The notes under the pieces were generated by a model. The model had not been told where the DNA came from and ran no database searches. It was given only the letters and a program-made list of their open reading frames with translations. This document shows positions 16,747-45,075 of a stretch of 64,000 bases of DNA, piece by piece; positions within the stretch are counted from its first letter, which is position 1, and every line of letters starts with the position of its first letter. The position numbers and the translations under genes are program-made. The DNA is taken from the IMG/VR virus record IMGVR_UViG_3300046499_000591, positions 15,198 to 79,197 of that record; one strand, given 5' to 3'. Source of the stretch: a virus.

Positions 16747-16747
16747 C

Positions 16748-23046: not shown

Positions 23047-23271
23047 ATGGCGAAGAACATCGAGGTACCGGTCCCCGACGACGTGTACGCGGCCCTCGCC
23101 GAAGAGGCCGAGCGCGCCGGCGTCACGGTGCCGGAGCTGGCCGGCCAGTACGTGATGCACGACGTCGGCCGGCGCCGCTTCCTCGCGGCCGCCGACCACT
23201 TCACCGAGGCGTGGGGGCCGGCGTTCGACGAGCGGTTCGGCACGGTCCGCGCCGGCGGTGCCGCCGCGTGA
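23047..23271 (+). CDS. Antitoxin-like RHH protein (partner of the Doc-like gene)
   Basis: KNIEVPVPDDVYAALAEEAERAG ribbon-helix-helix pattern; GTGA overlap with the Fic/Doc gene. Confidence 0.7.
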   Translation: MAKNIEVPVPDDVYAALAEEAERAGVTVPELAGQYVMHDVGRRRFLAAADHFTEAWGPAFDERFGTVRAGGAAA

Positions 23272-23639
23272 TCCTGACCGTCGACCGCGGCTGGCTCCTG
23301 GACGTCGCGCAGCGGTACGTCCGCCCGGAGCCCGACGTCACCGACTGGGGGAGCCTCGCGGCCGCCGTCGCCCGGCACGCCGACGAGGTCATGGGCATTG
23401 CCGTGTACCCGGAGGCCCACCACCGAGCGGCGTCCCTCATGCACCTGCTCATCCGCGTCCCCGCGCTGGAGCACCGCAGCGAGCTGTTCGGGGCGGCCGT
23501 CGCCGCGGCGTACCTGACCGCGTCCGGGCTGACCGTCACGGTGTCCCCGAAGGACGCGGCGGCCCTCGCCGAGCGCGTCCGGGACGGCCTCGGCGTCCGC
23601 GAGCTTGCCCAGGAGATCAAACGCGACTGGCTCACGTGA
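23268..23639 (+). CDS. doc: Fic/Doc-fold toxin with a degenerate active-site motif
   Basis: D-x-GSLAAAVARH...YP....RAASLMHLL Doc-like scaffold; the HPFxDGNKR position reads VPALEHRSE. Confidence 0.7.
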   Translation: MILTVDRGWLLDVAQRYVRPEPDVTDWGSLAAAVARHADEVMGIAVYPEAHHRAASLMHLLIRVPALEHRSELFGAAVAAAYLTASGLTVTVSPKDAAALAERVRDGLGVRELAQEIKRDWLT

Positions 23640-23651
23640 CCACCGCACACC

Positions 23652-23686
23652 ACGAACGCCCCGCCGGATGCCGGCGGGGCGTTCGT
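23652..23686. terminator. Bidirectional terminator
   Basis: ACGAACGCCCCGCCGG-ATG-CCGGCGGGGCGTTCGT, 16-bp stem. Confidence 0.8.
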
Positions 23687-23689
23687 CGT

Positions 23690-25078
23690 TCAGTGCTCCG
23701 ACGGGGCGTCGTCGCCGGCTGCTGCGGCGGCGGCCGCCGCGGCGTCCTCGGCCGCACGGGCCCGCTCCTCCGCCCGTACGCGCTCCTCCGTCGTACGGGC
23801 GAGTTCCTCGGCCTCGCGGAGCAGCCGGCGGACGCCCTCCACCTCGTCCCGCAGCGTATCGACGCGGGTTTCCAGCGCGCCGGCCCGTTCCGTCGCCCGG
23901 TCCACGTCGGCGCGCGCCCGCCGCAACTCGGCTTCCAGGCCCTTCCGTAGCTGGGTCGCGGCCGCCTCCACGGCGGTAACCCGTGCCGTCGCGCTCTCGG
24001 CGGCCTGGCGGGCGGCGGCGTCCGCGGCGCGCGCCCGGTCGTCCGCCGCGTTCGCGGTCGTCTGCGCGGCGCTGACGGCCTCGGCCGCCTCGGCCTTCAC
24101 GCCGGCGGCCGCGGCCCGTTCCTGCTTCACGGTCGCAGTCATCTCGTCGACGAGCCGCTTGGCCTCGTTCTGCGCCCGGCCGGCGACGGCCTCGCGGGCG
24201 GCGGCGGCCTCCTTCGCGGCCCGGACCGTCTCGGCGGACTCGGCCTTGACCCGCTTGACTTCGTCGCGGGCCTCTCGGACGGCCCGCTCGGCCTCGGCCC
24301 GGGCCTCCGCCACCAGGCGCTCCGCCTCGACGCGGCCAGCCTCGATGCGGTCGGCGGCGTCGGCCAAGGCTGCGGCTGTGTCCTCCGCGGCCTTGGTCTT
24401 CGCCCGCTCGACCTCGCCGGCCGCTTCCGCGCGGGCTGCCTCGACGTCCCGGGCCGCATCCTCGCGGGCCGTCTCGACCTCGCCGGCCGCCTCCGTGCGG
24501 ATGCGCTGCACCTCGGCGTCGAAGCCGGCCCGGGCTTGGTCGAGTTGGGCGATGGCCTCCTCGGCCGCATCGTCCGCGGCCTTCTGGAGTTCGGCGGCGC
24601 CCCGGGCGGCGGTCTCCGCGGCGTTCCGGCCGGCGTGCGCGGTGGAGGCGGTGGCCTCGGCCGCCGCGATTCGGGCGGCGGCGTCGTTGGTGACCGCGAG
24701 CATTTGCGCCTCGGCGGCCTCCGGGTCGGTGATGGTCTGGAGTTGCTGGACGTAGCGGCCGAGGTCGCCGGAGAGGCGCTGCATCGCGCCGAGGACGTCG
24801 GCGCGGAGGTCCACGGCGGTCGCGGCCGCCACGGACACGGGGCGGTCGACGTCCTCGGGCTCGGGCCGGCCGGCGGCCTTGGCCTCCCTGCGGTTGCGGG
24901 CCTTGTACGCCGTGAGCGCGTTGTGGTCCTCCCGCTCGCAGTAGACGGACGGCCGGCCGGTCGTGCCGGGGGCGCGTTCCTTCACCGGGTCCATGCACCC
25001 GGGGTACGCGCACGTCGGGGGCGCCTCGGCGTCGTCCTCGTCGCGCTCTGCCGTTTCGACGCGCTGGGGCTCGCTCAC
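23690..25078 (-). CDS. Long coiled-coil protein with N-terminal Cys/His (Zn-like) domain
   Basis: CAYPGC...GRPSVYC...DH N-terminus followed by about 350 aa of Ala/Glu/Arg heptads; GGAG RBS. Confidence 0.75.
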   Translation of the reverse strand: MSEPQRVETAERDEDDAEAPPTCAYPGCMDPVKERAPGTTGRPSVYCEREDHNALTAYKARNRREAKAAGRPEPEDVDRPVSVAAATAVDLRADVLGAMQRLSGDLGRYVQQLQTITDPEAAEAQMLAVTNDAAARIAAAEATASTAHAGRNAAETAARGAAELQKAADDAAEEAIAQLDQARAGFDAEVQRIRTEAAGEVETAREDAARDVEAARAEAAGEVERAKTKAAEDTAAALADAADRIEAGRVEAERLVAEARAEAERAVREARDEVKRVKAESAETVRAAKEAAAAREAVAGRAQNEAKRLVDEMTATVKQERAAAAGVKAEAAEAVSAAQTTANAADDRARAADAAARQAAESATARVTAVEAAATQLRKGLEAELRRARADVDRATERAGALETRVDTLRDEVEGVRRLLREAEELARTTEERVRAEERARAAEDAAAAAAAAAGDDAPSEH

Positions 25079-25126
25079 CCGTATCTCCTCGTGGTCGTGG
25101 GGCGACGCCGAGTGTACTCACGGGCC

Positions 25127-25191
25127 GGTTTCGTTCCATTCCATTCCATTTCATGGCGCGAGAATGGAACGGAATGGAATGGAACGAAACC
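25127..25191. repeat. Inverted repeat built from TTCCA/TGGAA pentamers
   Basis: GTTTCGTTCCATTCCATTCC (25128-25147) and GGAATGGAATGGAACGAAAC (25171-25190) form a perfect 20-bp inverted repeat, with further pentamers inside. Confidence 0.85.
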
Positions 25192-25287
25192 CCGGCCCGG
25201 GGTCGCGTACGCCCGTTTCCGGCCCGTAGACGCGACGGCGCCCCCGCCGGCAGTCCGGCGGGGGCGTCGTACGGGCGGAGGGGGGCG

Positions 25288-25530
25288 TCAGTCGCCGAAG
25301 ATGGTGGCGAACAGCGCGTAGATGGCGCAGCCCCCGCCGACCAGGATGAAGCCCCACACGATCAGGACGTCGAGGGGGTTGCCGTAGTCGATGGGCGTGA
25401 AGACGTCGGGGGTGTCCTCCGCCTGCTGCCGGGCTTCCTGGTTCTTCATATGCCAGCTCTGCGCGGCCATGTAATCGCTCGCCTGCTGGCGGAACGCGTC
25501 GTCGGCCTGCTGGCGTTCCCAGTCCTGCAT
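25288..25530 (-). CDS. Small membrane protein
   Basis: GGGGGA RBS; C-terminal hydrophobic helix VLIVWGFILVGGGCAIYALFATIF; own promoter upstream. Confidence 0.65.
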   Translation of the reverse strand: MQDWERQQADDAFRQQASDYMAAQSWHMKNQEARQQAEDTPDVFTPIDYGNPLDVLIVWGFILVGGGCAIYALFATIFGD

Positions 25531-25562
25531 GGGTCCCCCTCGTATAGTGCGGATGCGGCGAT

Positions 25563-25593
25563 CAGCTTCGCATCCCGTGTAGCTACAGGCAAG
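25563..25593 (-). promoter_or_regulatory. Leftward promoter with TGTAGCTACA operator
   Basis: Minus strand reads TTGCCT-GTAGCTACAC...GAAGCT; palindrome at 25578-25587. Confidence 0.65.
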
Positions 25594-25600
25594 AGGGGTC

Positions 25601-25786
25601 TTACCAGGTGCGCGGCCCCCCGTAGTACGCCCATTCGGCCTTCCGGTCGGCCTCGACCTGGATCAGAATGTCGCGCATGAAGTCACCGGTGCCGTACTTG
25701 CAGCCGGGCTTGTGCGGGAACGGGAACTGGTTCGACGTCACGCCGCAGCCGCCGCCGTCGCACGTGTCGTAGCCGTACCGGATCAC
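25601..25786 (-). CDS. Small Cys-containing hypothetical protein
   Basis: GTG overlaps the recombinase stop; VIRYGYDTCDGGGCG...HKPGC. Confidence 0.45.
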   Translation of the reverse strand: MIRYGYDTCDGGGCGVTSNQFPFPHKPGCKYGTGDFMRDILIQVEADRKAEWAYYGGPRTW

Positions 25787-26859
25787 AGGCCGATGCCTCT
25801 CATGGGGTTCTCTTCGCGGTCGTCCACGGGCCGGATGTACGCGAGGACTTGCGGCGAGTTCTCCGCCCACCGGCCCTGGGTGCGGATCGCGGAGACGGGC
25901 GCCTTCTGTCGGTACGCCTCGCTCGCGCCGCCGGCCCGGAAGCCGTGGGCGGTGTAGGTCAGTCCGTCGTCGGGGAACACGACGGCGGCCCGGCGCTGCA
26001 CCATCTCGTTGATGGCGTCGCCGGACATGGAGTCGTGGGTGATCTGGTCCCACTGGTTGATGGCGCGCAGGAGTCGGCCGGTGGTGATGCCGCGGTCGGC
26101 GAGCGCGGCCCGGTACGCGCGGACGACGCGGACGGGGTCGGTGTCGTTGTGGACGCCGCGCGGCACGATGACCTCGACGCCGTCGCCCTCCTGGTCGGTC
26201 TTGGAGGCGCGGATCAGGATGGTGAGGTCGCCCTCGTCGTCCTCGCTGATGTCTTCCAGGTGTAGGCCGGCCAGTTCGGAGCGGCGGGCCATCATCGCGA
26301 ACCCGAGGACGAGGATGACCCGGTCGCGGAGGCCGGCGAGGGTGGTGAGGTCGCACGTGTCGATGAGGGCGCGCAGCTTGGCGAGGTTGATGGGCGGCGC
26401 CTTGCGCTTGCGGGTGCCGGCCTTCGCGCGCCCCTTCTTGTAGGCGGCGAGCAGGCGCAGCGCGCCGGCGGTGTCCGGCTGGTCGCGGTAGCCGGCCGAC
26501 TTGTGGCGGGAGCGGATGACGCCGAGGGCCTGCTCGATGCTGGACGGGGCCGGCGTGCGGCCGGTGCGCTCCGACGGGGTCACGGTCATGTGCCGGACGT
26601 ACTCGGTGAGGGTGGCCGGCGTCGCCGGCAGCGGCACCCGCCCCTGGACGGTGCACCAGCCGGCGAACGTCTGCCACTGTCGGGTGTAGGCGCGTTGGGT
26701 GTTCTCGGGGACGGAGTCGACGAGGGCCTGGCGGGTCTCGTCGCTCACCTCGTGGTCGCGGTCGGTGTGGACGAGGGGCGTCTCGGGGCGTGCCGCCGGC
26801 AGGAGGTGGTCGTCGTCGACGAGCTCGGCGTCGACCACTTCGGATTCGTCGTCTGTCAC
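25783..26859 (-). CDS. Cre-like tyrosine recombinase (putative dimer resolvase)
   Basis: Complete catalytic set as in Cre: R (MMARRSEL), K (SKTDQ), HxxR (HGFR), W (QGRW), Y (LAYIR); N-terminal NTQRAY...W..F..WC core-binding domain. Confidence 0.9.
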   Translation of the reverse strand: MTDDESEVVDAELVDDDHLLPAARPETPLVHTDRDHEVSDETRQALVDSVPENTQRAYTRQWQTFAGWCTVQGRVPLPATPATLTEYVRHMTVTPSERTGRTPAPSSIEQALGVIRSRHKSAGYRDQPDTAGALRLLAAYKKGRAKAGTRKRKAPPINLAKLRALIDTCDLTTLAGLRDRVILVLGFAMMARRSELAGLHLEDISEDDEGDLTILIRASKTDQEGDGVEVIVPRGVHNDTDPVRVVRAYRAALADRGITTGRLLRAINQWDQITHDSMSGDAINEMVQRRAAVVFPDDGLTYTAHGFRAGGASEAYRQKAPVSAIRTQGRWAENSPQVLAYIRPVDDREENPMRGIGL

Positions 26860-26871
26860 GCCCTCAATCTT

Positions 26872-26899
26872 ACCCGTGATAAGCCAAGTTATCCGGGGT
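26872..26899. other. Putative 11-6-11 recombination core site (lox/dif-like)
   Basis: ACCCGTGATAA-GCCAAG-TTATCCGGGGT; arms 9/11 inverted, with the inner TAA/TTA typical of tyrosine recombinase sites; 12 bp upstream of the recombinase start. Confidence 0.7.
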
Positions 26900-27056
26900 T
26901 ATGCGCTGAACGGCTCCTGATACAGGGCCAGAAAACGGCTGTGCGGCTCCGTGGGAGCCGAACGGCCCTCCCGACGTCCGGTCGCACCGGACACGGCGAG
27001 ATCGTCGACGAGAGGGCCCGTTCTGTGGGTCGCGTTTCTACCGATCCGCGAGCGTT

Positions 27057-28333: not shown

Positions 28334-28437
28334 ACACGGCTCCCTCCGTCGATGCGATAGGCGGAGGGACGCCTTCCAAGTGATCGCATTATGCGGTCGG
28401 CCTGCGACGAACGCGAATCATCGGCAACGATGCGCCC

Positions 28438-28797: not shown

Positions 28798-28828
28798 GAG
28801 CGCCCCCGGGGTACCTCCGGGGGCGCTC
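28798..28828. terminator. Hairpin between the lipoprotein gene and mini-array 1
   Basis: GAGCGCCCCCGG-GGTACCT-CCGGGGGCGCTC. Confidence 0.7.
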
Positions 28829-28830
28829 TG

Positions 28831-28921
28831 GGCCACAGCCCCGCGTGCGCGGGGAGCAGCGGTAGCCCGGTGGTCGACCTACAGTCTCCGCATGGGCCAT
28901 ACCCGACACGTCGGGTGGTGC
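28831..28921 (-). CRISPR. Type I-E-like single-spacer mini-array 1 (degenerate repeat - 33-nt spacer - canonical repeat)
   Basis: Minus strand: GCACC-ACCCGA-CGTG-TCGGGT-ATGGCCCA, spacer TGCGGAGACTGTAGGTCGACCACCGGGCTACCG, then CTGCT-CCCCGC-GCAC-GCGGGG-CTGTGGCC; both repeats have the 5+16+8 I-E geometry. Confidence 0.75.
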
Positions 28922-28996
28922 TCGACCGAGGAGAGGTGTATCTATCTAGGCGAAAGCACACCTGAAGTTGTTGCTTCGATGGTGCCTCGGTCGAGC
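28920..28996. ncRNA. Candidate structured RNA abutting mini-array 1
   Basis: 12-bp closing stem GCTCGACCGAGG/CCTCGGTCGAGC enclosing AGGTGT..GC-GAAA-GC-ACACCT and GAAG..CTTC helices. Confidence 0.45.
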
Positions 28997-29042
28997 GGTT
29001 CAACTATGGCACAGGCCGCTGACACCGTGCAGCCGAACCGGG

Positions 29043-29651
29043 TCACTCGATCGGGCGATGGGCGCGCCGGCACATCGTCCCGCGGCATCCCTGCCGGTAC
29101 CCGCACGGCCGGCCGCACCGGTCGCCGCCGACGCACAGCGCGACGGCGGCCTCGTCGAGGGCGGCCCTAAAGTCGTCGTCGCGGCGGGCGAGCCCGAACA
29201 CCTGGCCCGGGGTCACCTCGGCCCGGACGGCGGCCGCCTCGATGGTGGCGACGTCGCCGGCCGAGACCAGTTCGAGCACCTGCCGGCGCCGCTGCTCGGG
29301 GAACACGGCGTCGGCGGCCGTACGCCGGCGCGTACGGGAGTCGGCGTTGTGCCAGGCCAGGCAGTCATCGCACCCGCAGCCGAGGCGCCACAGCGTCGAC
29401 GGGGCGTAGCGGCTGTGGTCGAGGGCCGGCGGGTCGGTGTCGGCGGCGGCGATGAGGGCCGCGCCGGTCCATACCCGCCCTCGGCCGTCGGCGCCGGGCA
29501 CCCGTTCCCACTCGGCGCCGGGGAACCAGCCGCTGAGGACCAGGGTGTTCGTCGACGACACGGCCAGGCCGAGGAGTTCGGCGAGGTCGGCGGCGCGGTA
29601 CCGGGCGTCGGGGTCGATGCGGTCGACGACGCGGGCGAGGGGGTGGTCCAT
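29043..29651 (-). CDS. HTH + Cys/His zinc-binding protein between the mini-arrays
   Basis: GGGAGA RBS, ATG at 29651; YRAADLAELLGLAVSS HTH; LGCGCDDC..WH; second HTH-like segment; GYRQGCRGTMCRRAH. Confidence 0.75.
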   Translation of the reverse strand: MDHPLARVVDRIDPDARYRAADLAELLGLAVSSTNTLVLSGWFPGAEWERVPGADGRGRVWTGAALIAAADTDPPALDHSRYAPSTLWRLGCGCDDCLAWHNADSRTRRRTAADAVFPEQRRRQVLELVSAGDVATIEAAAVRAEVTPGQVFGLARRDDDFRAALDEAAVALCVGGDRCGRPCGYRQGCRGTMCRRAHRPIE

Positions 29652-29682
29652 GCTTCTCTCCCTGGGTATGGGGGTGTCTGCT

Positions 29683-29768
29683 GCGGTCACCTCCGCATGC
29701 GCGGAGCAGAATCCGGCTCCTCGGCGAGCAGCAGCCAAGGGCGATACCCCCGCGTTTGCGGGGAAGAG
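29683..29768 (-). CRISPR. Type I-E-like single-spacer mini-array 2
   Basis: Minus strand: CTCTT-CCCCGC-AAAC-GCGGGG-GTATCGCC, 28-nt spacer CTTGGCTGCTGCTCGCCGAGGAGCCGGA, then TTCTG-CTCCGC-GCAT-GCGGAG-GTGACCGC. Confidence 0.72.
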
Positions 29769-29816
29769 TTCGACGTCATGATGGCACACTCCGCCGGCAG
29801 CGGGCGGGGAACCGGG

Positions 29817-30032
29817 TCAGTCCTCGTTGTACAGCGACGGGAACGAGCGCCGGGCGACGCCGCCCGTGTAGGCGAGCATGTGGGCCGTCTCCGCCGGCGT
29901 CAACGGCCGTGGATCGCGGAGCCCTTCGGCGAGGCCGTCGGCGAAGCAGCGGCCCAGGTATTCCAGCGCGGCCCGGTCCCGCTCGGCGATGGTGGGCCCC
30001 ATGCCCAGGAGGCGGCGAAGGAGTCGATGCAT
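29817..30032 (-). CDS. Small hypothetical protein, first gene of the mini-array operon
   Basis: MHRLLRRLLGMGPTIAERD..., divergent from the XRE gene. Confidence 0.55.
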   Translation of the reverse strand: MHRLLRRLLGMGPTIAERDRAALEYLGRCFADGLAEGLRDPRPLTPAETAHMLAYTGGVARRSFPSLYNED

Positions 30033-30171
30033 GCCGGCAGCATCGCACGCCGCACCGACATCAGACCGTATGCGAAAGCCCCTCACGTCACAGGTACGTA
30101 AGGGGCGTTCGCAGTCTCCGCCCGGCCGGCCGGGGGTACCGTTCCTAGTGGACGCTAGGAATGGAGCCAGT

Positions 30172-31401
30172 ATGCCCCACTACGCCGACACCGGGGGGAG
30201 CGCAGAGAGCAACGGGCAGCGCCTTGCCCGCCTCCGTGCGCGCCACCGGTGGACTCAGCAACGCCTGGCAGATGAAGCCGGGTACTCTCTCGCAGCCGTG
30301 AAAGCCTACGAACAAGGGCGCCGCAGCCTGGACCGCCCCGCCGTGGTCCTCGCGTTCGCTCACGCCCTGGACTGCCATCCCACCGAGATCACCGGCGGCC
30401 CGTACTCGCCGGTGTCCACCGACACCGAGGGGCAGGTCGCCGTCGCGGCCGTCGCCGCGGTACGCCGCGCCCTGCTGCGGCACGGCCGCCCCACCAGGCC
30501 GGAGGAGCACGAGGTTGCCGCTGTCGACCTGCCGGAGCTACGGCGACGCGTCGCCGAGGGCAACGCCTTCCGCCAGGCCGCGGCTTTAGCGAAGTCCGGT
30601 CCCATCCTGCCCGCACTGCTCCGCGACCTCCAGGTGGCCGCCGAGGTGTGCGAGGGCGACCAACGCCGGGAAGCCTTCGGGCTGCTCTCGTCGGCGTACG
30701 AGTGCGCCATGCAGTACCTCTACAAGCTGGGCCACACCTCGGATGCCACCCTGGCGACCGAGCGGGTGCTGTGGTCCGCGCAGGAGTCCGGCGACCCGCT
30801 CCGCATCCTGGCCTCGCACTGGTACGACGCCGGGGAGTTCCTGTCGATCGGCGAGCACGACGAGGCCGGCGCCATCATCGACGACGCCCTGACCGAGCTG
30901 GGGACGGTCCGCGACCGTACGCCGGAGGTGGTGTCCCTGTGCGGCGCGTTCCTCCTCAAGGCATCGCTGAACTCGGCCCGCTCGGCGGACAACCGGGGCG
31001 CCGAGCAACACCTGGCGAAGGCGAAGACCGCGGCGGAGGAGCTGGGCGGCGACCGCAACGACTACCAGCTGCAATTCGGGCCGACCAACGTGGCCATCTG
31101 GGGTGTGTCCTTGCCGGTGGAGATGGGCAAGGGCCGCGTCGCCGTGGACCGGGCCGAGGGGGTGCGCCTGCCGGCGCAGTTCTCCCCGGAGCGGCACTCG
31201 CACCACTTCATCGACGTGGGCCGCGCGCACTTCTACAACGGGCAGCGCGAGGCGGCTATCGGCGCGTTCCTCAAGGCGGAGCGGCTGGCACCGCAGGCGA
31301 CCCGCATGCATGCCGGTGTGCGGGAGACCGTCGGCACGATGATCCGTACTCAGAAGCGCGGTGAGCTGGTGGAGTTGGGTATCCGGCTCGGCGTCGTGTG
31401 A
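30172..31401 (+). CDS. XRE-family HTH regulator with helical/TPR-like C-terminus
   Basis: GQRLARLRARHRWTQQRLADEAGYSLAAVKAYEQGRR HTH; FGPTNVAIW and ER.APQ motifs typical of Streptomyces XRE proteins; contains a TTA codon at 30586. Confidence 0.88.
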   Translation: MPHYADTGGSAESNGQRLARLRARHRWTQQRLADEAGYSLAAVKAYEQGRRSLDRPAVVLAFAHALDCHPTEITGGPYSPVSTDTEGQVAVAAVAAVRRALLRHGRPTRPEEHEVAAVDLPELRRRVAEGNAFRQAAALAKSGPILPALLRDLQVAAEVCEGDQRREAFGLLSSAYECAMQYLYKLGHTSDATLATERVLWSAQESGDPLRILASHWYDAGEFLSIGEHDEAGAIIDDALTELGTVRDRTPEVVSLCGAFLLKASLNSARSADNRGAEQHLAKAKTAAEELGGDRNDYQLQFGPTNVAIWGVSLPVEMGKGRVAVDRAEGVRLPAQFSPERHSHHFIDVGRAHFYNGQREAAIGAFLKAERLAPQATRMHAGVRETVGTMIRTQKRGELVELGIRLGVV

Positions 31402-31500: not shown

Positions 31501-31902
31501 ATGAGCACCGCGCCACCACCGCTGGCGTTCCTCTACGACCGCTGCTTAACAGAGAACGCCGCGATGCTGGAGCTGCGCTGCACGGCCCTCGCCGAATACG
31601 TCGAGGAGCGGGGCTGGGTAGAGGCCGGCAGCTTCGTCGACTACGGCGACGCGGCACTGACCAACGACAACCGGCCGGCGTTCGACGAGCTGCTGCGCAC
31701 CATGGCGCGCGCCACCGACGTGGACCGGGTGTGCCTGGTGTACGACTGGGGCCGCCTGAGCCACGACGCCGGCCACCGGCAGGTGTTCACCCGCCGGGTC
31801 CTGGGCGCCGGCGGCTGGCTGGCGTCCCTCAACGGGGAGACGGTGCGAATCGGAGCGGTCCCGGACGGGCGGCTGACGAGCGCACCGCAGGCAATCGCAT
31901 GA
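31501..31902 (+). CDS. Stand-alone serine resolvase-like catalytic domain lacking the catalytic Ser
   Basis: FLYDRCL (vs YxRxS), RPAFDELL and VYDWGRLS motifs; no DNA-binding domain; TTA codon at 31546. Confidence 0.7.
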   Translation: MSTAPPPLAFLYDRCLTENAAMLELRCTALAEYVEERGWVEAGSFVDYGDAALTNDNRPAFDELLRTMARATDVDRVCLVYDWGRLSHDAGHRQVFTRRVLGAGGWLASLNGETVRIGAVPDGRLTSAPQAIA

Positions 31903-35454: not shown

Positions 35455-36639
35455 ATGGCATCCGCACCCAAGGCCGCCGGCACCGCCAGCGACCCCACCG
35501 CCCACACCCTCACCCTCACGCCGGGGCAGCTGGCCGGCCTCGAAAAGCTCCGCGAGCCGTTCCCCGAGACCGCCATCGCGAAGCGCCCCCAGATCTCGTG
35601 TGGCGCCTGCAAGGACGCGAGCACGAAGGTGTGCAACACCCACAGCAAGGCGACGTGCGCGGCCTGCGGCCAGTACGTGACCACGGCCCACAAGCACCTC
35701 GACTACGTCGGGCACGCCGAGGCCACCGACCGGCTCCTCTCGGTCGACCCCACGTGGGACTGGGAGCCGATCGCCCGGGACGACAAGGGCCGCCCGCTCA
35801 TCGACTCCGACGGCGGCATGTGGATCACGCTGACCGTCTGCGGCATGACCCGCAAGGGATACGGCGACGCCGTCGGCAAGCGCGCCGGCACCACGGCCAC
35901 GAAGGAGATCATCGGCGACGCCATCCGCAACGCGGGCATGCGCTTCGGCATGGCCCTGGACCTGTGGGCGAAGACCAAGCTGCACATCGAGCCCCCGCAC
36001 CCGGCCGAGCCGTTCCTCGAAGCCATCAAGACCGAACGCGTCTGGATGTCGTCGGAGTGGCTGGCCGGGGTCCGCCAGGAGGCCGACGAGGCCGGGCAGT
36101 TGGACTACGTCCTTCCCCGCGGCGGCGGCAAGACCCTCGGCGACATCATCGACGGGCAGCTCGCGGTCCTCGCGGACGCGGCCGAGCGGTACGCCGCCAT
36201 GCGCATCAAGGCCGACGAGGAGCGCCAGGCCCGCAAGGAGGAGCGCGCCGCGGTCACCGCGCACGTCGCGGCCTCGCACCCCGACCCGGCGCAGCAGCCC
36301 GCGCCGCCGGCCGGACAGCAGCCGCCGCCGGCGGGTCCGCCGCCGGCCGACATCGGGCCGAAGACCGCGCAGCAGATCCGCGACGCGTGCGGCCCGGTGT
36401 GGCTCGACCCGGACGGTTTGCAGCGCGTGCTCGACCGGGCTACCGAGATCCGGGTCATCAACGAGCCGGCCGACCCGTCGAAGCCGCGCGGCTCGACGCT
36501 CGGCCAGGCCCTCCAGATCCAGATCACCGAACTCCGCCGGCGCGCCGCGCAGAGGACCAGCACGACCCAGGCGTCGGACGCCGCCCACCAGTACGCCGAA
36601 CACGATGATTGGGGACACACGGGTGACGCTGCGGGATGA
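35455..36639 (+). CDS. Rad52/Sak-like single-strand annealing protein with Cys-rich insertion
   Basis: L..PFP...I, LDYVGHA..TDRLLSVDPTW.W and KE.IGDAIRNAGMRFG.ALDLW motifs. Confidence 0.8.
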   Translation: MASAPKAAGTASDPTAHTLTLTPGQLAGLEKLREPFPETAIAKRPQISCGACKDASTKVCNTHSKATCAACGQYVTTAHKHLDYVGHAEATDRLLSVDPTWDWEPIARDDKGRPLIDSDGGMWITLTVCGMTRKGYGDAVGKRAGTTATKEIIGDAIRNAGMRFGMALDLWAKTKLHIEPPHPAEPFLEAIKTERVWMSSEWLAGVRQEADEAGQLDYVLPRGGGKTLGDIIDGQLAVLADAAERYAAMRIKADEERQARKEERAAVTAHVAASHPDPAQQPAPPAGQQPPPAGPPPADIGPKTAQQIRDACGPVWLDPDGLQRVLDRATEIRVINEPADPSKPRGSTLGQALQIQITELRRRAAQRTSTTQASDAAHQYAEHDDWGHTGDAAG

Positions 36640-39317: not shown

Positions 39318-39826
39318 TACGCGAGACCCCGCTGCCCGGCGACATTGGCCTGACGAGCATCACCGGCGCCGTCGGCCGGCTCATCAAGTTCGGGCAGTGG
39401 CTCAACGGCGACGGCTTCGGCGCCTACCAGCACGCGTTCGTGGTGCTGCCCGGAAGCCTGCTCGTCGAGGCGATGCCCGGCGGCGCCATCGTCGACCGGC
39501 TGTCGAAGTACGACGACCGCGACGTGCTGTACGTGTCGCCGGCCGGCCTCACCGACGCGCAGCGCAAGGCGATATGCGATGCCGCACTGCGGTACCGCGG
39601 CGTCCCGTACAGCTTCCTCGACTATCTCGCCCTCGCCGCGCACCGGTTCCACCTGCCCGTGCCCGGGCTCCGCCGCTACATCCAGTCGACCGGCCATCAG
39701 ATCTGTTCCCAGCTGGCCGACCGCGCGTACCTCGACGCCGGCCAGCACCTGTTCACCGACCGGCGGTGGGAGGGGTACATAACCCCCATGGCCATCGCCG
39801 CCGAACTCATGTGGCCCGGCCGCTGA
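39314..39826 (+). CDS. Permuted papain-like NlpC/P60 (YiiX/YebB-type) enzyme
   Basis: PGDIGL, YQHAFVV (His), EAM..G, G.PYSF and ICSQLA..AY (Cys after His) order. Confidence 0.8.
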   Translation: MIRETPLPGDIGLTSITGAVGRLIKFGQWLNGDGFGAYQHAFVVLPGSLLVEAMPGGAIVDRLSKYDDRDVLYVSPAGLTDAQRKAICDAALRYRGVPYSFLDYLALAAHRFHLPVPGLRRYIQSTGHQICSQLADRAYLDAGQHLFTDRRWEGYITPMAIAAELMWPGR

Positions 39827-40600
39827 CCGCAAGTCGTAATCCCTTCCCCGTAGGGGCTGCTTCGGGGGGTTCCGGACGTCCACGGCGTCTCGAACCCCCC
39901 ATTACTTAGACGGTTCATCGGACCGTCGAACGGGTGACGATGACGTGCCGTCATGGGCACATAACCTGCTGAAACTTGCGCGGCCGGATGCGGGGGCTTT
40001 TGCCGTGGGAAAGATGTACGCTTAGCGCGCGCCAGCGGTGCATGATCTTCCAGGTCGGCCCGCCGCGACGCACCCAGACCTGAAAAATGATCTGGGGCCC
40101 GGCTCTCCCAGGTGGCGCCAACCACCAGGCGGGAGACGGACCCCAGGTAGCGGAGGCGCCTTCAGCAAGCCCTCCGCGGACGACCCCTTACTCCAAGGAC
40201 GGTGTCGCGTGAACGATGTTACTGGCGTACCCGCCAATGTGCACACCCTGGCCCGCTACTCCGGCGTGAGGATTCCGCCGTCGAGGAGCGGGCCCTCGTG
40301 TATCCCGGCCCGGGTCGCCCTCGTTGAACTTCCTGCGACCGCCGGTCGCAGGGTGCCCATGGAACCCCCGGGGAGGGTGTTGGAAGGAAGTTGATATCGG
40401 GGGCGGCCCCGGCTCTGTCACGAGCCTCTTACCGCCCCGGCCGGCGTCTGGTGTGTCACCACCTGACCTAACCGGCCCTCATGCCACCGCCGGATCGGGA
40501 GTCACCCCGAGCCCCCGGCGAAGAACCCGGTAGTCAACCGGGCCCCTTTCCGCGTCGAGTCCCTTTGTCAGAGGGCGCATCGGCGTTTTTACGAGTCGAG

Positions 40601-41917
40601 ATGAGTATGCAGCACCTTCACGCCTCTTGTCAGCTTCGCGTGCCCGAAACGGGTCATGTCGCGCCGGAATCCACCCTCGGAACCGAACACACGTCTGCCC
40701 GCCGGCGGAAGGCGTGGGCCCCCGAGCCGTCCGAGACCATCGCATGCACGACGTCCCGGCGTACCGGCCCCCGCGCATGGCTCCGCGCCCTCGAGCGCGC
40801 CGTCGACGCCGGCCTCGTCCCCGGGTTCAACGACACCACCCTCGCCATCATCACCGTCCTCGCGTCCCGCATGGACTACGACACCGGGCACGCCCGCTAC
40901 GTCATGCGCGACGTCATGGAGCGCACCGGCCTGGGCCGGACCGCGGTCACCGACCACGTGAAGATGCTCCGCGCCGGCGGCTGGCTCGCATGGGCCGAGC
41001 ACGGCAGCCTCCGCAACGCGCTCCGCAACCTCGGCAAGCCCGGGTACGCCAAGACCGCGACCGTGTACGCCGCGACCATCCCGCCGGCCTATGACCACCT
41101 CGTGGGCCACATCCTCATCGGGTCCGGATACGACGCCCGCGTCATCGTCGACCACCGCCCCGGAGCTGTGGAAACCGTTGTGGATACCGCGGGTACGACG
41201 GCTGTGGAAAACCCCAGCGGTGAAACGGCGCGGACCCCTTCCCTCTGGGTGGATAAGGAAGAGGGTCAGGTTCAGGTAGTGGGTGGTGTAGACAGATCTA
41301 CCGCTAGCGCGGCAGTCACGAAGTCCCGCCGCAAGAGGAAGCTCACCGTCACCGGCTACAAGATCACCGGGGAGCGGATCGAGCGGGCCCGACGACTCGC
41401 CGTGTCTGTCCGCCCGTTGGTGAACTGGATTCAAGGCGCCAGCTACGACGAGCTGTCGTGGGTCCTCCTCGACCTCGTCGCCCGCGACTGGTCCGACTCC
41501 CGCATCGTGTTGTGGCTGGGGAAGGTGGGCCAGGACGTCGGAGCGGCCCGCAGACGCCCCCGCGCCCCGCACCGGGTCATCGCGGCCGCCCTCCGCCGAA
41601 AGGACCGCGAGGACGCCACCAGCGCCGTTCCCGCAGACCTCGCGGCCGAGGAGTACATGCGCCCGGCCGCCCCGAACGCCGCCTTCGCCGCGGCCCGGGA
41701 GGCCATCAGGCCGCGCCAGGAGCGCATGGTGGACTACCCGGCGGCCGACGTGCTGCCGACGCTCCGTGAGGAACTCTTCGAGCAGCGCGCGGCCGCCGAG
41801 CTCGACCCGGGCCTCGTGCGGGCAACCGCCCACATCCTGGGCCGCGATGAAGCCCTGCGCATGTTCGGCCCCCGGGCCGCCGGGATCCTCGAGGCCGCGC
41901 TCCTCGTGACCGCCTGA
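40601..41917 (+). CDS. rep: Replication initiator (HTH) protein, plasmid-type
   Basis: LASRMDYDTG...ERTGLGRTAVTDHVKMLRAGGWL winged helix and TATVYAATIP motif; internal DnaA-box-like cluster; adjacent to par genes; start uncertain (frame open from 40481). Confidence 0.7.
   Translation: MSMQHLHASCQLRVPETGHVAPESTLGTEHTSARRRKAWAPEPSETIACTTSRRTGPRAWLRALERAVDAGLVPGFNDTTLAIITVLASRMDYDTGHARYVMRDVMERTGLGRTAVTDHVKMLRAGGWLAWAEHGSLRNALRNLGKPGYAKTATVYAATIPPAYDHLVGHILIGSGYDARVIVDHRPGAVETVVDTAGTTAVENPSGETARTPSLWVDKEEGQVQVVGGVDRSTASAAVTKSRRKRKLTVTGYKITGERIERARRLAVSVRPLVNWIQGASYDELSWVLLDLVARDWSDSRIVLWLGKVGQDVGAARRRPRAPHRVIAAALRRKDREDATSAVPADLAAEEYMRPAAPNAAFAAAREAIRPRQERMVDYPAADVLPTLREELFEQRAAAELDPGLVRATAHILGRDEALRMFGPRAAGILEAALLVTA
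41167..41256 (-). promoter_or_regulatory. Cluster of four co-oriented DnaA-box-like 9-mers inside rep (putative origin)
   Basis: Minus strand GTTTCCACA (41167), GTATCCACA (41179), TTTTCCACA (41203) and TTATCCACC (41248) vs consensus TTWTNCACA. Confidence 0.6.
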
Positions 41918-42003
41918 CCCCACCTCACCCACCCGACCCGCAACCGTCGCGCCGGCGGTCGCCCTGGCCTGCCCGCACACCGACCCGACCCGAAGGGGGC
42001 CCC

Positions 42004-42540: not shown

Positions 42541-42548
42541 GGGACACC

Positions 42549-42860
42549 ATGCCGAACCCCCGTCACGTGCTCACCACCCAGCCCGTCGCCCCCCGTTGCC
42601 CGGCGACCGGGGCGGACGGATGGCACTGCCCCCGCCATGCCGGCTTCGGCACCGACCACCCCGGCACGGGAAACTGTCGGCAGCACGAACTCGAGGCCGC
42701 CGCTGCGACCCGGGCCGCGCACGCCGACCGCGTCCCGCCGGCCGTGTTCCAGGAGGCCTCCTACGTCGACGGCCTCCCGTACCGCGAGACCGCCCCGGGC
42801 CCGAACGGCATCACCGACGAGGACGACGAGGACGACACCGACTGGGGCATGGTGGCCTAA
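42549..42860 (+). CDS. Small Cys/His protein
   Basis: RCPA......C...AG.GTDHPG.G.C..H motif. Confidence 0.6.
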   Translation: MPNPRHVLTTQPVAPRCPATGADGWHCPRHAGFGTDHPGTGNCRQHELEAAAATRAAHADRVPPAVFQEASYVDGLPYRETAPGPNGITDEDDEDDTDWGMVA

Positions 42861-42875
42861 CCGCGCCGACGGCCC

Positions 42876-43005
42876 GAAACCCTGCCACATGTGGCAGGGT
42901 TTCCGACGCCCCGAATCTCTGCCACATGTGGCAGAAAACGCGAGGGCCGGCACCCCCATGGGGAGCGCCGGCCCTCGAGGCGAAAACCCTGCCACATGTG
43001 GCAGA
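42876..43005. repeat. Three palindromes CTGCCACATGTGGCAG (parS-like centromere)
   Basis: Cores at 42882, 42919 and 42989; the first extends to the 28-bp perfect palindrome GAAACCCTGCCACATGTGGCAGGGTTTC; directly after the par operon stop codon. Confidence 0.8.
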
Positions 43006-43018
43006 GAATCCGGCGGTA

Positions 43019-43933
43019 CTAGTCCACCGTCACACCCGCCTCGGTGAGTGCCGCGTTGAGGACCCGCACTAGGTCCCGTACCCGCGCCGGATCCTTGCGG
43101 ACCGCCTCGCGCACGGTCTCCGGCACGAGCAGCTTCGCGGCCCGCTCCACGACGGCGCCCGGGTCGGCGGCCGCCGCGAGCGCCGGCGTCTCCTCGGGGT
43201 CGACCCTCGTGGTGATGCCCAGGAGTGCCTTCGCCTTCTCCAGCTCGTCGGGGGTCGGCGTCGCCCCCTTCTTCGTCTCGCACGCCGTCTTCCAGATCTT
43301 GACGACCCGGTCGGCCCCGTGCTGCAACCGCACCGAGTGCAGCGCGTCGACCTGCCGGGAGGACAAGTCCTCGAGGACGTAGCCGGCGCCCCGAAGGACC
43401 GCGAGGAGCGGGAGCGTCTGCGTGATCCGGTAGCCGGTGCGTTCCGAGAGGTCGTGTTGCTCGCGGAGGTACTTCGCGAAGGACCGGTAGGTCTTCCCGT
43501 CGTTCCCCTTGATCAGCTTGTAGAGCTTGTGCTCGTGGACCCAGCACAGGTACGGGCCGGCCGCGGCGATGAACTCCTCGTTGGCCGCGTCCACCTTCGC
43601 CTTCCACTGGGCCTTCGCCCCGTGGATGCCGCGCTCGCACACGGCGAGCTGTTCGGCCGGCTCGGCGTCCGGGCTGGGCAACGCCGGCGGCACGAACGCC
43701 GTCGGCGCCACGAACGTCGGCATGACCACGGCCGGGGCCGCGGCGGGTTCCGCGGGACGGGTGGCCGGGACGGCCGCCGGCTGCGCCCCGCCGACGGGTG
43801 CGTCTCCCTGCTCCCCGCCCTTTGTCTCCTCCCACTCCGCCATCACCTGCGCGCGCGTCCGGACCACCGGCGCCGGAGCGCCCGGCGGCTCCAACCCCGT
43901 CGACGGCAGCTCCTTGGGCTTGTACTTACTCAC
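43019..43933 (-). CDS. ParA partner (non-canonical ParB-like DNA-binding protein)
   Basis: ATGA overlap with parA; disordered basic N-terminus; LY...YRSFAKYLREQHDLSERTGYR HTH-like motif; no GxxR ParB-CTPase box seen. Confidence 0.65.
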   Translation of the reverse strand: MSKYKPKELPSTGLEPPGAPAPVVRTRAQVMAEWEETKGGEQGDAPVGGAQPAAVPATRPAEPAAAPAVVMPTFVAPTAFVPPALPSPDAEPAEQLAVCERGIHGAKAQWKAKVDAANEEFIAAAGPYLCWVHEHKLYKLIKGNDGKTYRSFAKYLREQHDLSERTGYRITQTLPLLAVLRGAGYVLEDLSSRQVDALHSVRLQHGADRVVKIWKTACETKKGATPTPDELEKAKALLGITTRVDPEETPALAAAADPGAVVERAAKLLVPETVREAVRKDPARVRDLVRVLNAALTEAGVTVD

Positions 43934-45075
43934 GCCGCCAACTCCTTCGCCACGGCGCGCATCGTCTCCGCCTGCGGGCTGTCCGGCGCGTACTCAAGGA
44001 GCGGGATCTCGTAGTCGGACGACTCGCGGCCCTCCACGGAGTCCTTGAGGTGGGCCAGCACACCGGGCGTCGTGAGTTCGTTCCACGCGTCGTAGAACGA
44101 CCGGGTCACCGTGCCCTTACGGGAGTCGTACGCGTTGACGATGATGCCGAGCTGGTCGACGACGATGCCGGTCCGCTCGCACTGGGTGACGATCTGGTTG
44201 TTGAGGAGCTTGTACGCGCGGAACGACGACTTGTCGGCCCACACGGGGACGAGGACACCGGAGCGCTCCATCAGCTCACCCGGCCGGCGCTGCACGTAGT
44301 CGATGGCGAGGTCGAGGCCGAGCCCGAGGTTCGGCGGGCCGTCGAGGAGGACGACGTCGTAGTTGGCCTCGACGGGGGCGAGGGCGCGGGCGAGGCAGGT
44401 GTCCCGGCCGGCGCGCATGGAGGCGAGTTCGGCGTCCATGAGGAACGCGTCCTCGGAGGCCGGCAGTATGTGCAGCCGTCCACCGAACCGCTCGCCGTCG
44501 AGGGCGATGATGGACCGGGCGAGGTGCGTCGCGGCCTTGCCGAGCATGTGCTGGAGGAGGCTGTCGCCGCCGAGCGGAAGTTCGGCGACCTGGAGCCGGG
44601 CGGAGAGGTGGCCCTGCGGGTCGTAGTCGACGAGGAGGACGCGGAGCCCCATCTCGGCGAGGGCCTGGCCGACGCCGGCAGTGATGAACGTCTTTCCTAC
44701 GCCGCCCTTTTGATTGGCAATCAGGACGCGCTGCACCGGTTGCGACACGAGCCGGTGTTCCGGGGACGGGTGGGCCTTGAGCCACACCGTGACCGCTTGC
44801 GCCATGCCCTGGACCTTGGTGAGTCCGCGGGCGTCGCACTCGGCTTCGAAGCGTGCCGGGCCGCCGGGAGGGAGGAAGACGCCCCACGACTTGGCGCCCT
44901 CGACCGGGACCGCGTCGGCGGCCGGCGCGGCGTACCAGAGGTTGAGGGCGTGGGCGGCGGCGTCCTGGACGTTCACCCCGTGCTCGGCCGCACGGATCTT
45001 GAGGTCCCGCCGCATCGACGGCATGAGGTTGACAAGCAACTTCTCGCGCGCGTTGTCAGGTGTTTCGGTCGTCAT
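43930..45075 (-). CDS. parA: ParA Walker-type partition ATPase with N-terminal tandem RHH-like extension
   Basis: IANQKGGVGKT deviant Walker A; VLLVDYDPQG, YDVVLLDGPP and IPLLEYAP.S..AE motifs. Confidence 0.92.
   Translation of the reverse strand: MTTETPDNAREKLLVNLMPSMRRDLKIRAAEHGVNVQDAAAHALNLWYAAPAADAVPVEGAKSWGVFLPPGGPARFEAECDARGLTKVQGMAQAVTVWLKAHPSPEHRLVSQPVQRVLIANQKGGVGKTFITAGVGQALAEMGLRVLLVDYDPQGHLSARLQVAELPLGGDSLLQHMLGKAATHLARSIIALDGERFGGRLHILPASEDAFLMDAELASMRAGRDTCLARALAPVEANYDVVLLDGPPNLGLGLDLAIDYVQRRPGELMERSGVLVPVWADKSSFRAYKLLNNQIVTQCERTGIVVDQLGIIVNAYDSRKGTVTRSFYDAWNELTTPGVLAHLKDSVEGRESSDYEIPLLEYAPDSPQAETMRAVAKELAA

What the first reader, a model, noticed from the sequence alone, without database searches (positions are those of the whole stretch)
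23047..45075. P1-like phage-plasmid toolkit in a Streptomyces-type siphovirus
Seen: full virion and lysis genes together with a Rep protein, ParA plus partner plus centromere-like palindromes, a Cre-type recombinase with its own core site, and two addiction-type TA pairs. No classical phage integrase with an attP/tRNA site is visible. Known: this combination is how P1 maintains itself, and a few Streptomyces plasmid-phages such as pZL12 have been described. Inference: extrachromosomal lysogeny.
Basis: partly seen in the sequence, partly recalled or inferred. Interest (0 to 1): 0.7.

Follow-up and report, generated by a model that had tools for sequence, protein, structure and literature searches.

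The report
Streptomyces phage-plasmid, pZL12 kind
This is a roughly 98-kb tailed Streptomyces phage genome that closes into a circle and also carries plasmid partition, Cre-like recombination, probable replication and conjugation genes, so it very likely persists as a plasmid like the known element pZL12, but in a separate and apparently widespread lineage.

Summary
The window lies in a 98,216-bp virus record with no host flanks. Its ends overlap by 214 bp and rebuild one intact type III PKS gene.

Confirmed:
- a complete siphovirus virion and lysis module;
- ParA, a family-less partner and three perfect 16-bp palindromes that co-vary with the par cassette in relatives;
- a tyrosine recombinase whose only PDB sequence matches are P1 Cre, beside an 11-6-11 core site conserved next to homologous recombinases in four other loci.

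Not confirmed:
- "Rep" is a winged-helix protein of no known family. It is homologous to pZL12.20c and sits next to par, but initiator function is inferred only;
- only one TA-like pair exists, and it has no family support.

Whole-element relatives occur as stand-alone 97-99 kb contigs in Streptomyces assemblies, one labelled plasmid. 24 of 41 large contigs carrying the Rep-like gene are 89-108 kb. A TraB-like translocase lies outside the window.

This is a new member of a known kind. Earlier scan notes on this same window flagged the recombinase site and the par system. I did not look for the element on other DNA.

The parts
26..1435 (+). Head-module protein (weak head maturation protease/scaffold signal)
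   Evidence: phrog_3017, E 8.5e-07; no Pfam hit. Follows the portal fusion gene that ends just upstream of the window.
1496..3010 (+). Probable major capsid protein, assigned by position
   Evidence: phrog_13692 (function unknown), E 8e-40, matched over the full length. No Pfam hit.
3515..4363 (+). Head-tail adaptor
   Evidence: phrog_442, E 2.3e-09.
5281..6531 (+). Tail tube protein
   Evidence: Pfam Phage_tube_2, E 3.4e-18.
7686..11384 (+). Tape measure protein (1232 aa)
   Evidence: Pfam PhageMin_Tail, E 1.2e-22.
11434..14862 (+). Large minor tail protein (1142 aa)
   Evidence: phrog_5313, E 2.9e-133. Relatives are 51-81% identical in Streptomyces prophages and viral contigs. A 1141-aa gene sits at the same position in relative L060.
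15314..16318 (+). Phage peptidase (lysis or tail-associated)
   Evidence: phrog_16701, E 1.5e-27. 46% identical to a pZL12 gene.
17351..18793 (+). Endolysin (GH25 muramidase with a peptidoglycan-binding domain)
   Evidence: Pfam Glyco_hydro_25, E 1.4e-34.
19954..20733 (+). GntR/UTRA regulator
   Evidence: Pfam GntR and UTRA. GntR regulators are also present in pZL12 and in NZ_CP109172.1.
23047..23271 (+). Small RHH-like protein (possible antitoxin or regulator)
   Evidence: RHH_5, E 3.7e-04, below the Pfam cut-off. Overlaps the next gene by 4 bp. Conserved in relative L059.
23268..23639 (+). 123-aa Doc-sized protein, TA-like by layout only
   Evidence: No family or PDB match and no Fic/Doc motif. 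A 77%-identical DNA stretch on a plasmid is annotated as a fic-family toxin (H10). 72% identical in L059.
25127..25191 (.). AT-rich 28-bp inverted repeat with GGAAT-type arms; function unknown
   Evidence: 93% complementary arms with a 9-nt spacer, unique in the element. Not conserved in L059.
25783..26859 (-). Cre-like tyrosine recombinase (358 aa)
   Evidence: All 17 PDB sequence matches are P1 Cre or engineered variants, E 1.2e-11, aligned over residues 39-348, with R-K-H-R-W-Y conserved. phrog_1, E 1.6e-14. Homologs in 1487 plasmid records.
26872..26899 (.). 11-6-11 core recombination site (ACCCGTGATAA-GCCAAG-TTATCCGGGGT), 12 bp upstream of the recombinase start
   Evidence: Single copy in the 98 kb. 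Arms conserved and spacer different upstream of the 78%-identical recombinase in L041. Same geometry beside the recombinases of pFP11, NZ_CP109332.1 and L059.
29878..31401 (+). XRE-type HTH regulator (candidate immunity repressor)
   Evidence: Pfam HTH_31, E 5e-12. A gene at the same position in L059 carries HTH_3 and HTH_31 and is only 29% identical.
35455..36639 (+). Single-strand annealing protein
   Evidence: phrog_3290, E 3e-49. 44% identical to pZL12.29c.
39827..40639 (.). 813-bp non-coding stretch upstream of the Rep-like gene (candidate origin, unproven)
   Evidence: GC 0.66 against about 0.71 overall. No iterons detected.
40640..41917 (+). Rep-like winged-helix protein (putative replication initiator)
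   Evidence: 36% identical to pZL12.20c, which lies next to pZL12 parAB. Homologs in 91 actinomycete plasmids. 95 protein homologs, 24 of 41 large contigs being 89-108 kb. The model has a winged-helix N-domain and a helical C-domain, and fold matches are generic.
42882..43004 (.). parS-like centromere: three perfect 16-bp palindromes CTGCCACATGTGGCAG
   Evidence: Three exact copies and none elsewhere in the element. Present twice at the same position in L058, which has the same par cassette, and absent from L056 and L057, which have the alternative cassette.
42941..42977 (-). Terminator-like hairpin closing the par operon
   Evidence: 17-pair stem followed by a T-run.
43019..43933 (-). ParA partner (304 aa), presumed centromere-binding protein of unknown family
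   Evidence: Overlaps parA by 4 bp. No Pfam, NCBIfam, PHROG or PDB sequence match. 57 homologs, none with a Pfam domain. The confident helical model has no significant fold match. 79% identical in L058.
43930..45075 (-). ParA partition ATPase (381 aa from the ATG at 45075; the open frame extends to 45336)
   Evidence: Pfam AAA_31 E 7e-23 and CbiA E 5e-17; NCBIfam ParA_partition. Start inferred from the translation and from the 381-aa ParA in L058. 93% identical in L058.

Best explanation
The window is part of a temperate siphovirus of Streptomyces, about 98.0 kb and circular in its replicative form, whose prophage is maintained as a low-copy plasmid rather than integrated.

Proposed mechanism, with each step marked:
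1. The virion, packaging and lysis genes give the lytic cycle (gene content shown; activity inferred).
2. The winged-helix protein at 40640-41917, the homolog of pZL12.20c, starts plasmid replication at a nearby origin (inferred; this is the weakest step).
3. ParA and its 304-aa partner segregate copies by acting on the three 16-bp palindromes downstream of the operon (gene identity and cassette/site co-variation shown; binding inferred).
4. The Cre-like recombinase resolves multimers, and perhaps circularises incoming DNA, at the single 11-6-11 site in its own promoter region (enzyme class and conserved site shown; role inferred).
5. A TraB-type FtsK/SpoIIIE translocase with a DUF2637 partner, outside the window, may allow mycelial conjugal transfer as in pZL12 (inferred).
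6. An RHH plus 123-aa gene pair may add post-segregational stability (speculative).

The element belongs to an uncharacterised family of 97-99 kb Streptomyces replicons. It is only distantly related to pZL12.
For: Record topology:
- The record is 98,216 bp and is not classed as a provirus.
- Its first and last 214 bp match at 211 of 214 positions.
- Closure rebuilds an intact 349-357 aa type III PKS, and all three differences are synonymous.

Virion module:
- It is complete.

Partition:
- ParA is confirmed.
- The three palindromes are unique in the element.
- They co-vary with the par cassette across relatives.

Recombinase:
- It matches only P1 Cre among solved structures, with the full catalytic set including W315.
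- The single 11-6-11 site is conserved beside homologous recombinases in four other loci, including the circular plasmid pFP11.
- Homologs occur in 1487 plasmid records.
- It is the only tyrosine recombinase found in a six-frame scan.

Rep-like gene:
- It is the homolog of pZL12.20c, next to pZL12 parAB.
- It also lies near parAB in the 87.8-kb circular phage-plasmid NZ_CP109172.1.
- 24 of 41 homolog-bearing contigs of 50 kb or more are 89-108 kb.

Whole-element relatives:
- JBITCY010000033.1 (97,029 bp) shares the tail gene, lysin, TA-like pair, a recombinase, the Rep-like gene and the par cassette in the same order.
- A 99,246-bp relative is labelled a plasmid.

Other plasmid marks:
- A TraB-like translocase is present.
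- A lone type III PKS also occurs in pZL12 and pSLE1 (PMC4487206).
- Type III PKS genes were reported only in plasmid-borne actinobacterial prophages (PMC10023795).
Against: - No direct evidence of the plasmid state.
- IMG/VR classes the record as linear and 89% complete.
- Circular assembly also arises for any terminally redundant or circularly permuted phage.
- The Rep-like protein has no family, no iterons upstream and only generic winged-helix fold matches below noise level.
- Some Rep-like homologs are lone genes near the ends of contigs of about 1 Mb.
- The closest recombinase homolog (78% identical) lies in a record classed as a provirus that has no ParA and no other recombinase.
- Relatives of the virion module are embedded in large chromosomal contigs without a linked ParA or Rep-like gene.
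Confidence: 0.76

Rival explanations
1. It is an integrative temperate phage. The Cre-like recombinase is its integrase, acting on the 11-6-11 site and a matching chromosomal site. The par genes serve only a transient or accessory role.
For: - PHROG places the recombinase in an integrase family.
- Its closest homolog lies in an IMG/VR 'provirus' that has no ParA and no other recombinase.
- Kin of the virion module are integrated prophages.
Against: - Our record has no host flanks and closes on itself.
- In the 'provirus' G016 the site is intact, with about 79 kb of viral DNA on one side and the recombinase gene on the other, so it is not an att junction there.
- Family relatives are stand-alone contigs of 97-99 kb.
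- This recombinase type is common on circular plasmids.
- No tRNA gene or arm-type sites were seen.
Confidence: 0.08
2. It has a dual lifestyle. It is usually a plasmid but can also integrate reversibly, as reported for the Nonomuraea element PhiNon1.
For: - PhiNon1 is described as pZL12-like and was detected both as a circle and integrated at a tRNA gene (PMC5431353).
- The authors of pSLE1 raised the same possibility because that plasmid carries integrase genes (PMC4487206).
Against: - No integrated copy of the backbone family was found. The Rep-like homologs on contigs of about 1 Mb are lone genes without phage or par neighbours.
- The element has one simple-site recombinase only.
Confidence: 0.08
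3. It is a conjugative plasmid that captured a prophage, or a defective plasmid-prophage that no longer makes virions. In that case it is not a working phage-plasmid.
For: - The virion module is mosaic and is shared with chromosomal prophages that lack the backbone.
- Plasmid-type genes (TraB-like, type III PKS, par) are plentiful.
- Production of virions is untested.
Against: - The virion and lysis module looks complete and uninterrupted.
- Its order relative to the backbone is kept in a 97-kb relative.
- No second integrase or att-like boundary separates the modules.
Confidence: 0.08

Closest known systems
Streptomyces plasmid-phage pZL12 / phiZL12 (GQ919031, 90,435 bp)
   Same: - A circular element of similar size with siphovirus genes.
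- A par locus with a homolog of the Rep-like gene (pZL12.20c) just upstream.
- A tyrosine recombinase (31% identical), an SSAP and methylases.
- A FtsK/SpoIIIE transfer gene.
- A MmyB-type regulator followed by a lone type III PKS.
- From my own knowledge of Zhong et al. 2010, it was shown experimentally to cycle between plasmid and lytic phage.
   Different: - Only 11 of 123 predicted genes match at E<1e-5.
- The virion module is different.
- ParA and its partner are unrelated: pZL12 has an annotated ParB, ours has a family-less partner.
- Which pZL12 gene is the experimentally defined repA could not be checked, because the paper is not held.
Bacteriophage P1 (RepA/oriR, ParA-ParB-parS, Cre-loxP, Phd-Doc)
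   Same: - The same functional logic.
- A ParA with an N-terminal extension, and a centromere downstream of the par operon.
- A recombinase that aligns with Cre over its full length with identical catalytic residues.
- A simple inverted-repeat site.
   Different: - No homology beyond Cre.
- The site is 11-6-11 (by my recollection the dif/cer geometry), not the 13-8-13 of loxP.
- The partner is not recognisably a ParB.
- No RepA-type iterons were found.
- Phd/Doc is not supported.
- Siphovirus tail genes (a tube and no sheath hit) rather than P1's contractile-tail morphology.
- A Gram-positive, high-GC host.
Streptomyces sp. NBC_01723 plasmid unnamed1 (NZ_CP109172.1, 87,786 bp, circular) and similar 88-100 kb Streptomyces plasmids
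   Same: - A plasmid of a complete genome that carries capsid, terminase and amidase genes.
- ParA and ParB, with a Rep-like homolog (41% identical) near them.
- A tyrosine recombinase, an SSAP (annotated Bet), a GntR regulator and a DUF2637 protein.
   Different: - Only 8 genes match ours at E<1e-5.
- It has a canonical ParB and different virion genes.
Cluster A parABS mycobacteriophages (RedRock, Miko and others; PMC7157519)
   Same: - Actinobacterial temperate siphoviruses in which a par cassette goes with extrachromosomal prophage maintenance.
- Close kin use integration instead.
   Different: - Those genomes are about 50 kb.
- parABS replaces the integrase outright.
- Most use an RNA-based origin.
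- They have no Cre-like recombinase, no conjugation genes and no PKS cargo.

Membership tests
Phage-plasmid (plasmid-prophage) | Complete virion, packaging and lysis gene set | tested here: met
   TerL, portal fusion, adaptor, tail tube, tape measure, tail protein and GH25 lysin.
Phage-plasmid (plasmid-prophage) | Plasmid partition system | tested here: met
   ParA domains. The three palindromes co-vary with the par cassette in relatives.
Phage-plasmid (plasmid-prophage) | Plasmid-type replication initiator and origin | tested here: inconclusive
   The candidate is the homolog of pZL12.20c and is common on plasmids. It has no family, no iterons and only generic winged-helix fold matches.
Phage-plasmid (plasmid-prophage) | Record free of host flanks and circular | tested here: met
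   Not classed as a provirus. The 214-bp end overlap rebuilds an intact gene. IMG/VR nevertheless labels the ends 'linear'.
Phage-plasmid (plasmid-prophage) | Extrachromosomal maintenance in the lysogen | not testable with these tools
The only support is indirect: stand-alone 97-99 kb relatives, one labelled a plasmid.
Cre/Xer-type simple-site tyrosine recombinase | Catalytic R-K-H-R-(W/H)-Y residues and collinearity with Cre in both domains | tested here: met
   Aligned over residues 39-348 to Cre 20-331, E 1.2e-11. R173, K201, H289, R292, W315 and Y324 are all conserved.
Cre/Xer-type simple-site tyrosine recombinase | Cognate short inverted-repeat core site without arm sites | tested here: met
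   A single 11-6-11 site at 26872-26899. Arms are conserved and the spacer varies in L041. The same geometry occurs beside homologs in pFP11, NZ_CP109332.1 and L059. Recombination at the site was not assayed.
Type Ia ParABS (P1/F type) | ParB with an HTH and a ParB_N (CTPase) domain | tested here: inconclusive
   The partner has no Pfam, NCBIfam or PDB sequence hit. The confident helical model finds no ParB among fold matches, all of which are at noise level.
Type Ia ParABS (P1/F type) | Walker-type ParA with an N-terminal extension, and a centromere next to the operon | tested here: met
   About 120 residues precede the KGGVGKT motif in the 381-aa form. The palindromes lie directly downstream of the partner gene.
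Phd/Doc (Fic-fold) toxin-antitoxin | Fic/Doc catalytic motif (HxFx[DN][AG]NKR) and a Fic domain hit | tested here: not met
   No such motif in the 123-aa protein. No Pfam, NCBIfam or PDB match.
Iteron-type RepA initiator (P1 RepA, RepA_N and similar) | Iterons next to the rep gene | tested here: not met
   No repeat family in 39780-40700 beyond two-copy chance-level matches.
pZL12 lineage (close kinship) | A large shared gene complement | tested here: not met
   11 of 123 genes match at E<1e-5, at 29-57% identity.

The most novel reading that the evidence does not exclude
The element represents a widespread, undescribed family of 97-99 kb conjugative phage-plasmids in Streptomyces with three notable features. 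First, the backbone is conserved while the partition cassettes and the Cre-like recombinase/site pairs are exchangeable at fixed positions. Second, the ParA partner is a centromere-binding protein with a fold not seen in solved structures. Third, the set of divergent recombinases, each with its own 11-6-11 site, would be a natural panel of orthogonal site-specific recombination tools for high-GC actinomycetes.
Probability: 0.45. Interest if true: 0.55.

Novelty: new member of a known kind. Interest (0 to 1): 0.45.

Why it matters
- Phage-plasmids are well known in enterobacteria and Bacillus. In Streptomyces, as far as the papers held here show, they rest mainly on one studied case (pZL12) plus genome surveys.
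- This element shows that a second, distinct lineage is common in isolate assemblies.
- It offers a compact candidate replicon plus partition unit and a Cre-like recombinase with a defined site. These could become low-copy vectors and recombination tools for antibiotic-producing actinomycetes.
- The cassette swaps at fixed positions are a neat natural experiment on incompatibility.
- The lone regulator plus type III PKS cargo, shared with pZL12 and pSLE1, hints at a conserved host-benefit function of these plasmid-prophages.

Tried and rejected
- Nucleotide search of the flagged span against phages found nothing. Against plasmids it found only short patches.
- A recombinase homolog 92 kb from the tail gene in genome G001 first looked like an integrated full-length relative. 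Gene-by-gene comparison showed that only the 30-kb virion module is shared.
- ParA-partner complex prediction gave no verdict. It counts neither for nor against binding.
- The pZL12 paper (PMC2897331) is not held, and its GenBank record does not label repA.
- Records behind loci L056-L058 could not be searched whole. I walked along one contig instead.
- Fold searches for the Rep-like protein and for the partner gave only noise-level matches.
- Atlas neighbours named 'Replication protein' are leads only.
- The second HTH protein (HTH_36, outside the window) is unrelated to the Rep-like protein.
- The AT-rich inverted repeat at 25127-25191 was considered as the recombinase site. I rejected it in favour of the conserved 11-6-11 site, because it is absent from relatives.
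- A six-frame scan for the Resolvase domain found nothing, although hmmscan of the 133-aa ORF at 31501-31902 gave Resolvase N-domain at E 7e-07. The genome-wide scan is therefore not fully sensitive.
- No second TA pair was found among the small overlapping gene pairs.


Full report
**What the window is.** The window is bases 15198-79197 of a single 98,216-bp record that the tools treat as an IMG/VR virus record. GC content is about 71%, and every nucleotide match is to Streptomyces. IMG/VR classes the ends as 'linear', with 89% estimated completeness, and does not call it a provirus.

The first 214 bp recur at the very end of the record, matching at 211 of 214 positions. The overlap lies inside a type III polyketide synthase gene. 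Closing the circle at 98,002 bp gives one intact reading frame of 349-357 aa. All three mismatches are synonymous. That suggests natural variants of one closed or concatemeric molecule rather than random assembly error.

**Virion and lysis genes are real, but lie outside the flagged span.** I called genes by GC3 frame bias.
- Upstream of the window are a large terminase and a 1028-aa portal-NUDIX-MuF fusion.
- In window 1-18793 are a head protein, a probable capsid (phrog_13692), a head-tail adaptor, a tail tube, a 1232-aa tape measure, a 1142-aa tail protein (phrog_5313), a peptidase and a GH25 endolysin.

**Partition system.** ParA is clear. Its likely start is the ATG at 45075, giving 381 aa, the same length as in a close relative. 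A 304-aa gene overlaps its end by 4 bp.

That partner has no Pfam, PHROG, NCBIfam or PDB sequence match. None of its 57 homologs carries a Pfam domain. A confident helical model (pLDDT above 90 for residues 85-245) finds only noise-level fold matches.

Directly downstream lie three exact copies of the 16-bp palindrome CTGCCACATGTGGCAG. They flank a terminator-like hairpin and occur nowhere else in the 98 kb.

The decisive evidence is comparative:
- Relative L058 has the same cassette (ParA 93% identical, partner 79%) and carries the same palindrome twice at the same position.
- Relatives L056 and L057 have a different ParA/partner cassette at that position and carry no copy.

The palindromes are therefore very probably the cognate centromere.

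**Recombinase and its site.** The 358-aa protein at 25783-26859(-) scores below the Pfam cut-off. However, all 17 of its PDB sequence matches are P1 Cre or engineered Cre variants. The alignment runs over nearly the full length at E 1.2e-11. R173, K201, H289, R292, the Cre-typical W315 and Y324 are all conserved.

I tested it by conservation.
- The 78%-identical recombinase in the otherwise unrelated viral record G016 has, at the same place, arms matching 12/12 and 9/11 with a different 6-bp spacer. The flanking DNA does not align.
- Sites of the same ...ATAA-N6-TTAT... geometry lie 46 bp upstream of the 35%-identical recombinase of the circular plasmid pFP11. They also lie at the operon starts of NZ_CP109332.1 and of relative L059.
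- Our element and G016 each hold exactly one such site.
- Homologs of the recombinase occur in 1487 plasmid records.

This fits a simple-site enzyme that resolves multimers of a circular replicon. That role remains inferred.

**The 'Rep' protein.** The gene at 40640-41917 has no family assignment, and the 813-bp non-coding stretch upstream shows no iterons. What can be said is this.
- The only phage record that carries a homolog is pZL12. There it is pZL12.20c, just upstream of parA (17c) and parB (16c).
- Homologs lie in 91 actinomycete plasmids, including near parAB in the circular phage-plasmid NZ_CP109172.1.
- Of 41 homolog-bearing contigs of 50 kb or more, 24 measure 89-108 kb.
- The predicted structure has an extended winged-helix N-domain and a helical C-domain. 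Fur-type repressors score best (Z 7.8). DnaD-NTD, RctB domain 1 and a multiresistance-plasmid initiator score Z 5.8-6.4. All of these are below the noise level.

Initiator function is therefore a reasonable inference and not a finding.

**A family of whole-element relatives.** I walked along contig JBITCY010000033.1, which is 97,029 bp and comes from a Streptomyces isolate assembly. It has, in our order:
- a 1141-aa tail gene and a GH25 lysin;
- the 71-aa plus 123-aa gene pair and a 451-aa gene;
- a tyrosine recombinase (a different allele, 36% identical, with its own 11-6-11 site);
- the HTH regulator and the early genes;
- the Rep-like gene and our par cassette.

Contigs of 99,136 bp and 99,246 bp share the backbone at 55-87% identity, and the latter is labelled a plasmid by its submitter.

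Relatives of the tail gene alone behave differently. They are embedded in large chromosomal contigs and lack a linked ParA or the Rep-like gene. The virion module is thus mosaic, and the plasmid-type backbone is what defines the family.

The pair formed by a MmyB-type regulator and a type III PKS is shared with pZL12, and pSLE1 also carries a lone type III PKS (PMC4487206). A survey found type III PKS genes only in plasmid-borne actinobacterial prophages (PMC10023795).

**What speaks against the plasmid reading.**
- Circular assembly alone does not distinguish a plasmid-prophage from a permuted phage.
- G016 is classed as a provirus and has no ParA and no other recombinase. Its site, however, is intact and internal, so it is not an att junction.
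- Some Rep-like homologs are lone genes near the ends of contigs of about 1 Mb.

**Toxin-antitoxin claim.** Only the pair at 23047-23639 has a TA-like layout. Support is a sub-threshold RHH hit, plus a fic-family annotation on a similar plasmid stretch. The 123-aa protein has no Fic/Doc motif and no family match. I found no second pair.

**Verdict.** The element is very probably a plasmid-prophage with the same functional architecture as pZL12 and, by analogy, P1. It shares only 11 of 123 genes with pZL12 and belongs to a distinct, apparently common 97-99 kb lineage. It is a new member of a known kind.

Noticed in passing
window 22075-63256 and on to genome coordinate about 89.3 kb: The perfect 10-bp palindrome TGTAGCTACA occurs 32 times in the element, against 0.02 expected from shuffles. 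Most copies are pairs 23-24 bp apart in front of leftward genes. This looks like a dispersed operator system for an unidentified repressor.
   Followed up: partly
window 25127-25191: An AT-rich 28-bp inverted repeat built of GGAAT-type pentamers, unique in the element. It lies between a terminator hairpin and the start of the 462-aa gene at 23690-25078(-). It is absent from relative L059 and its function is unknown.
   Followed up: partly
contig junction (G000:C1 97789-98216 joined to 1-860) and G000:C1 96790-97680: A lone type III polyketide synthase preceded by a MmyB-like regulator spans the circular junction. The same pair occurs in pZL12 (42-52% identity), and pSLE1 also carries a lone type III PKS. 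This looks like conserved cargo of Streptomyces plasmid-prophages.
   Followed up: partly
G000:C1 92147-95949 (L002:13048-16850): A DUF2637 protein (490 aa) is followed by a FtsK/SpoIIIE-family protein (649 aa) with a C-terminal HTH. This is a candidate TraB-type conjugal transfer module.
   Followed up: partly
G000:C1 11727-14813 (L001): A 1028-aa fusion protein combines a portal, a NUDIX hydrolase and a Mu F-like head morphogenesis domain.
   Followed up: no
window 42861-45581, compared with L056 and L057 at about 12300-14500: Family members carry two unrelated ParA/partner cassettes in opposite orientations at the same backbone position. The recombinase allele also differs between family members (36% identity). 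The backbone therefore has modular exchange points.
   Followed up: partly
window 31501-31902: A 133-aa ORF carries only the N-terminal catalytic domain of a serine resolvase (Pfam E 7e-07). A six-frame genome scan for the same family missed it.
   Followed up: no
window 28798-30172: Earlier scan notes report Cas-less CRISPR-like mini-arrays here, next to the XRE regulator gene. I did not check them.
   Followed up: no
models of window:40640-41917 (residues 245-329) and window:43019-43933 (residues 166-243): In the predicted models, the C-domain of the Rep-like protein and the core of the ParA partner both give their best weak matches to the same kind of small helical bundle (AAA+ lid, polymerase alpha p68 N-domain). 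All matches are at noise level.
   Followed up: no
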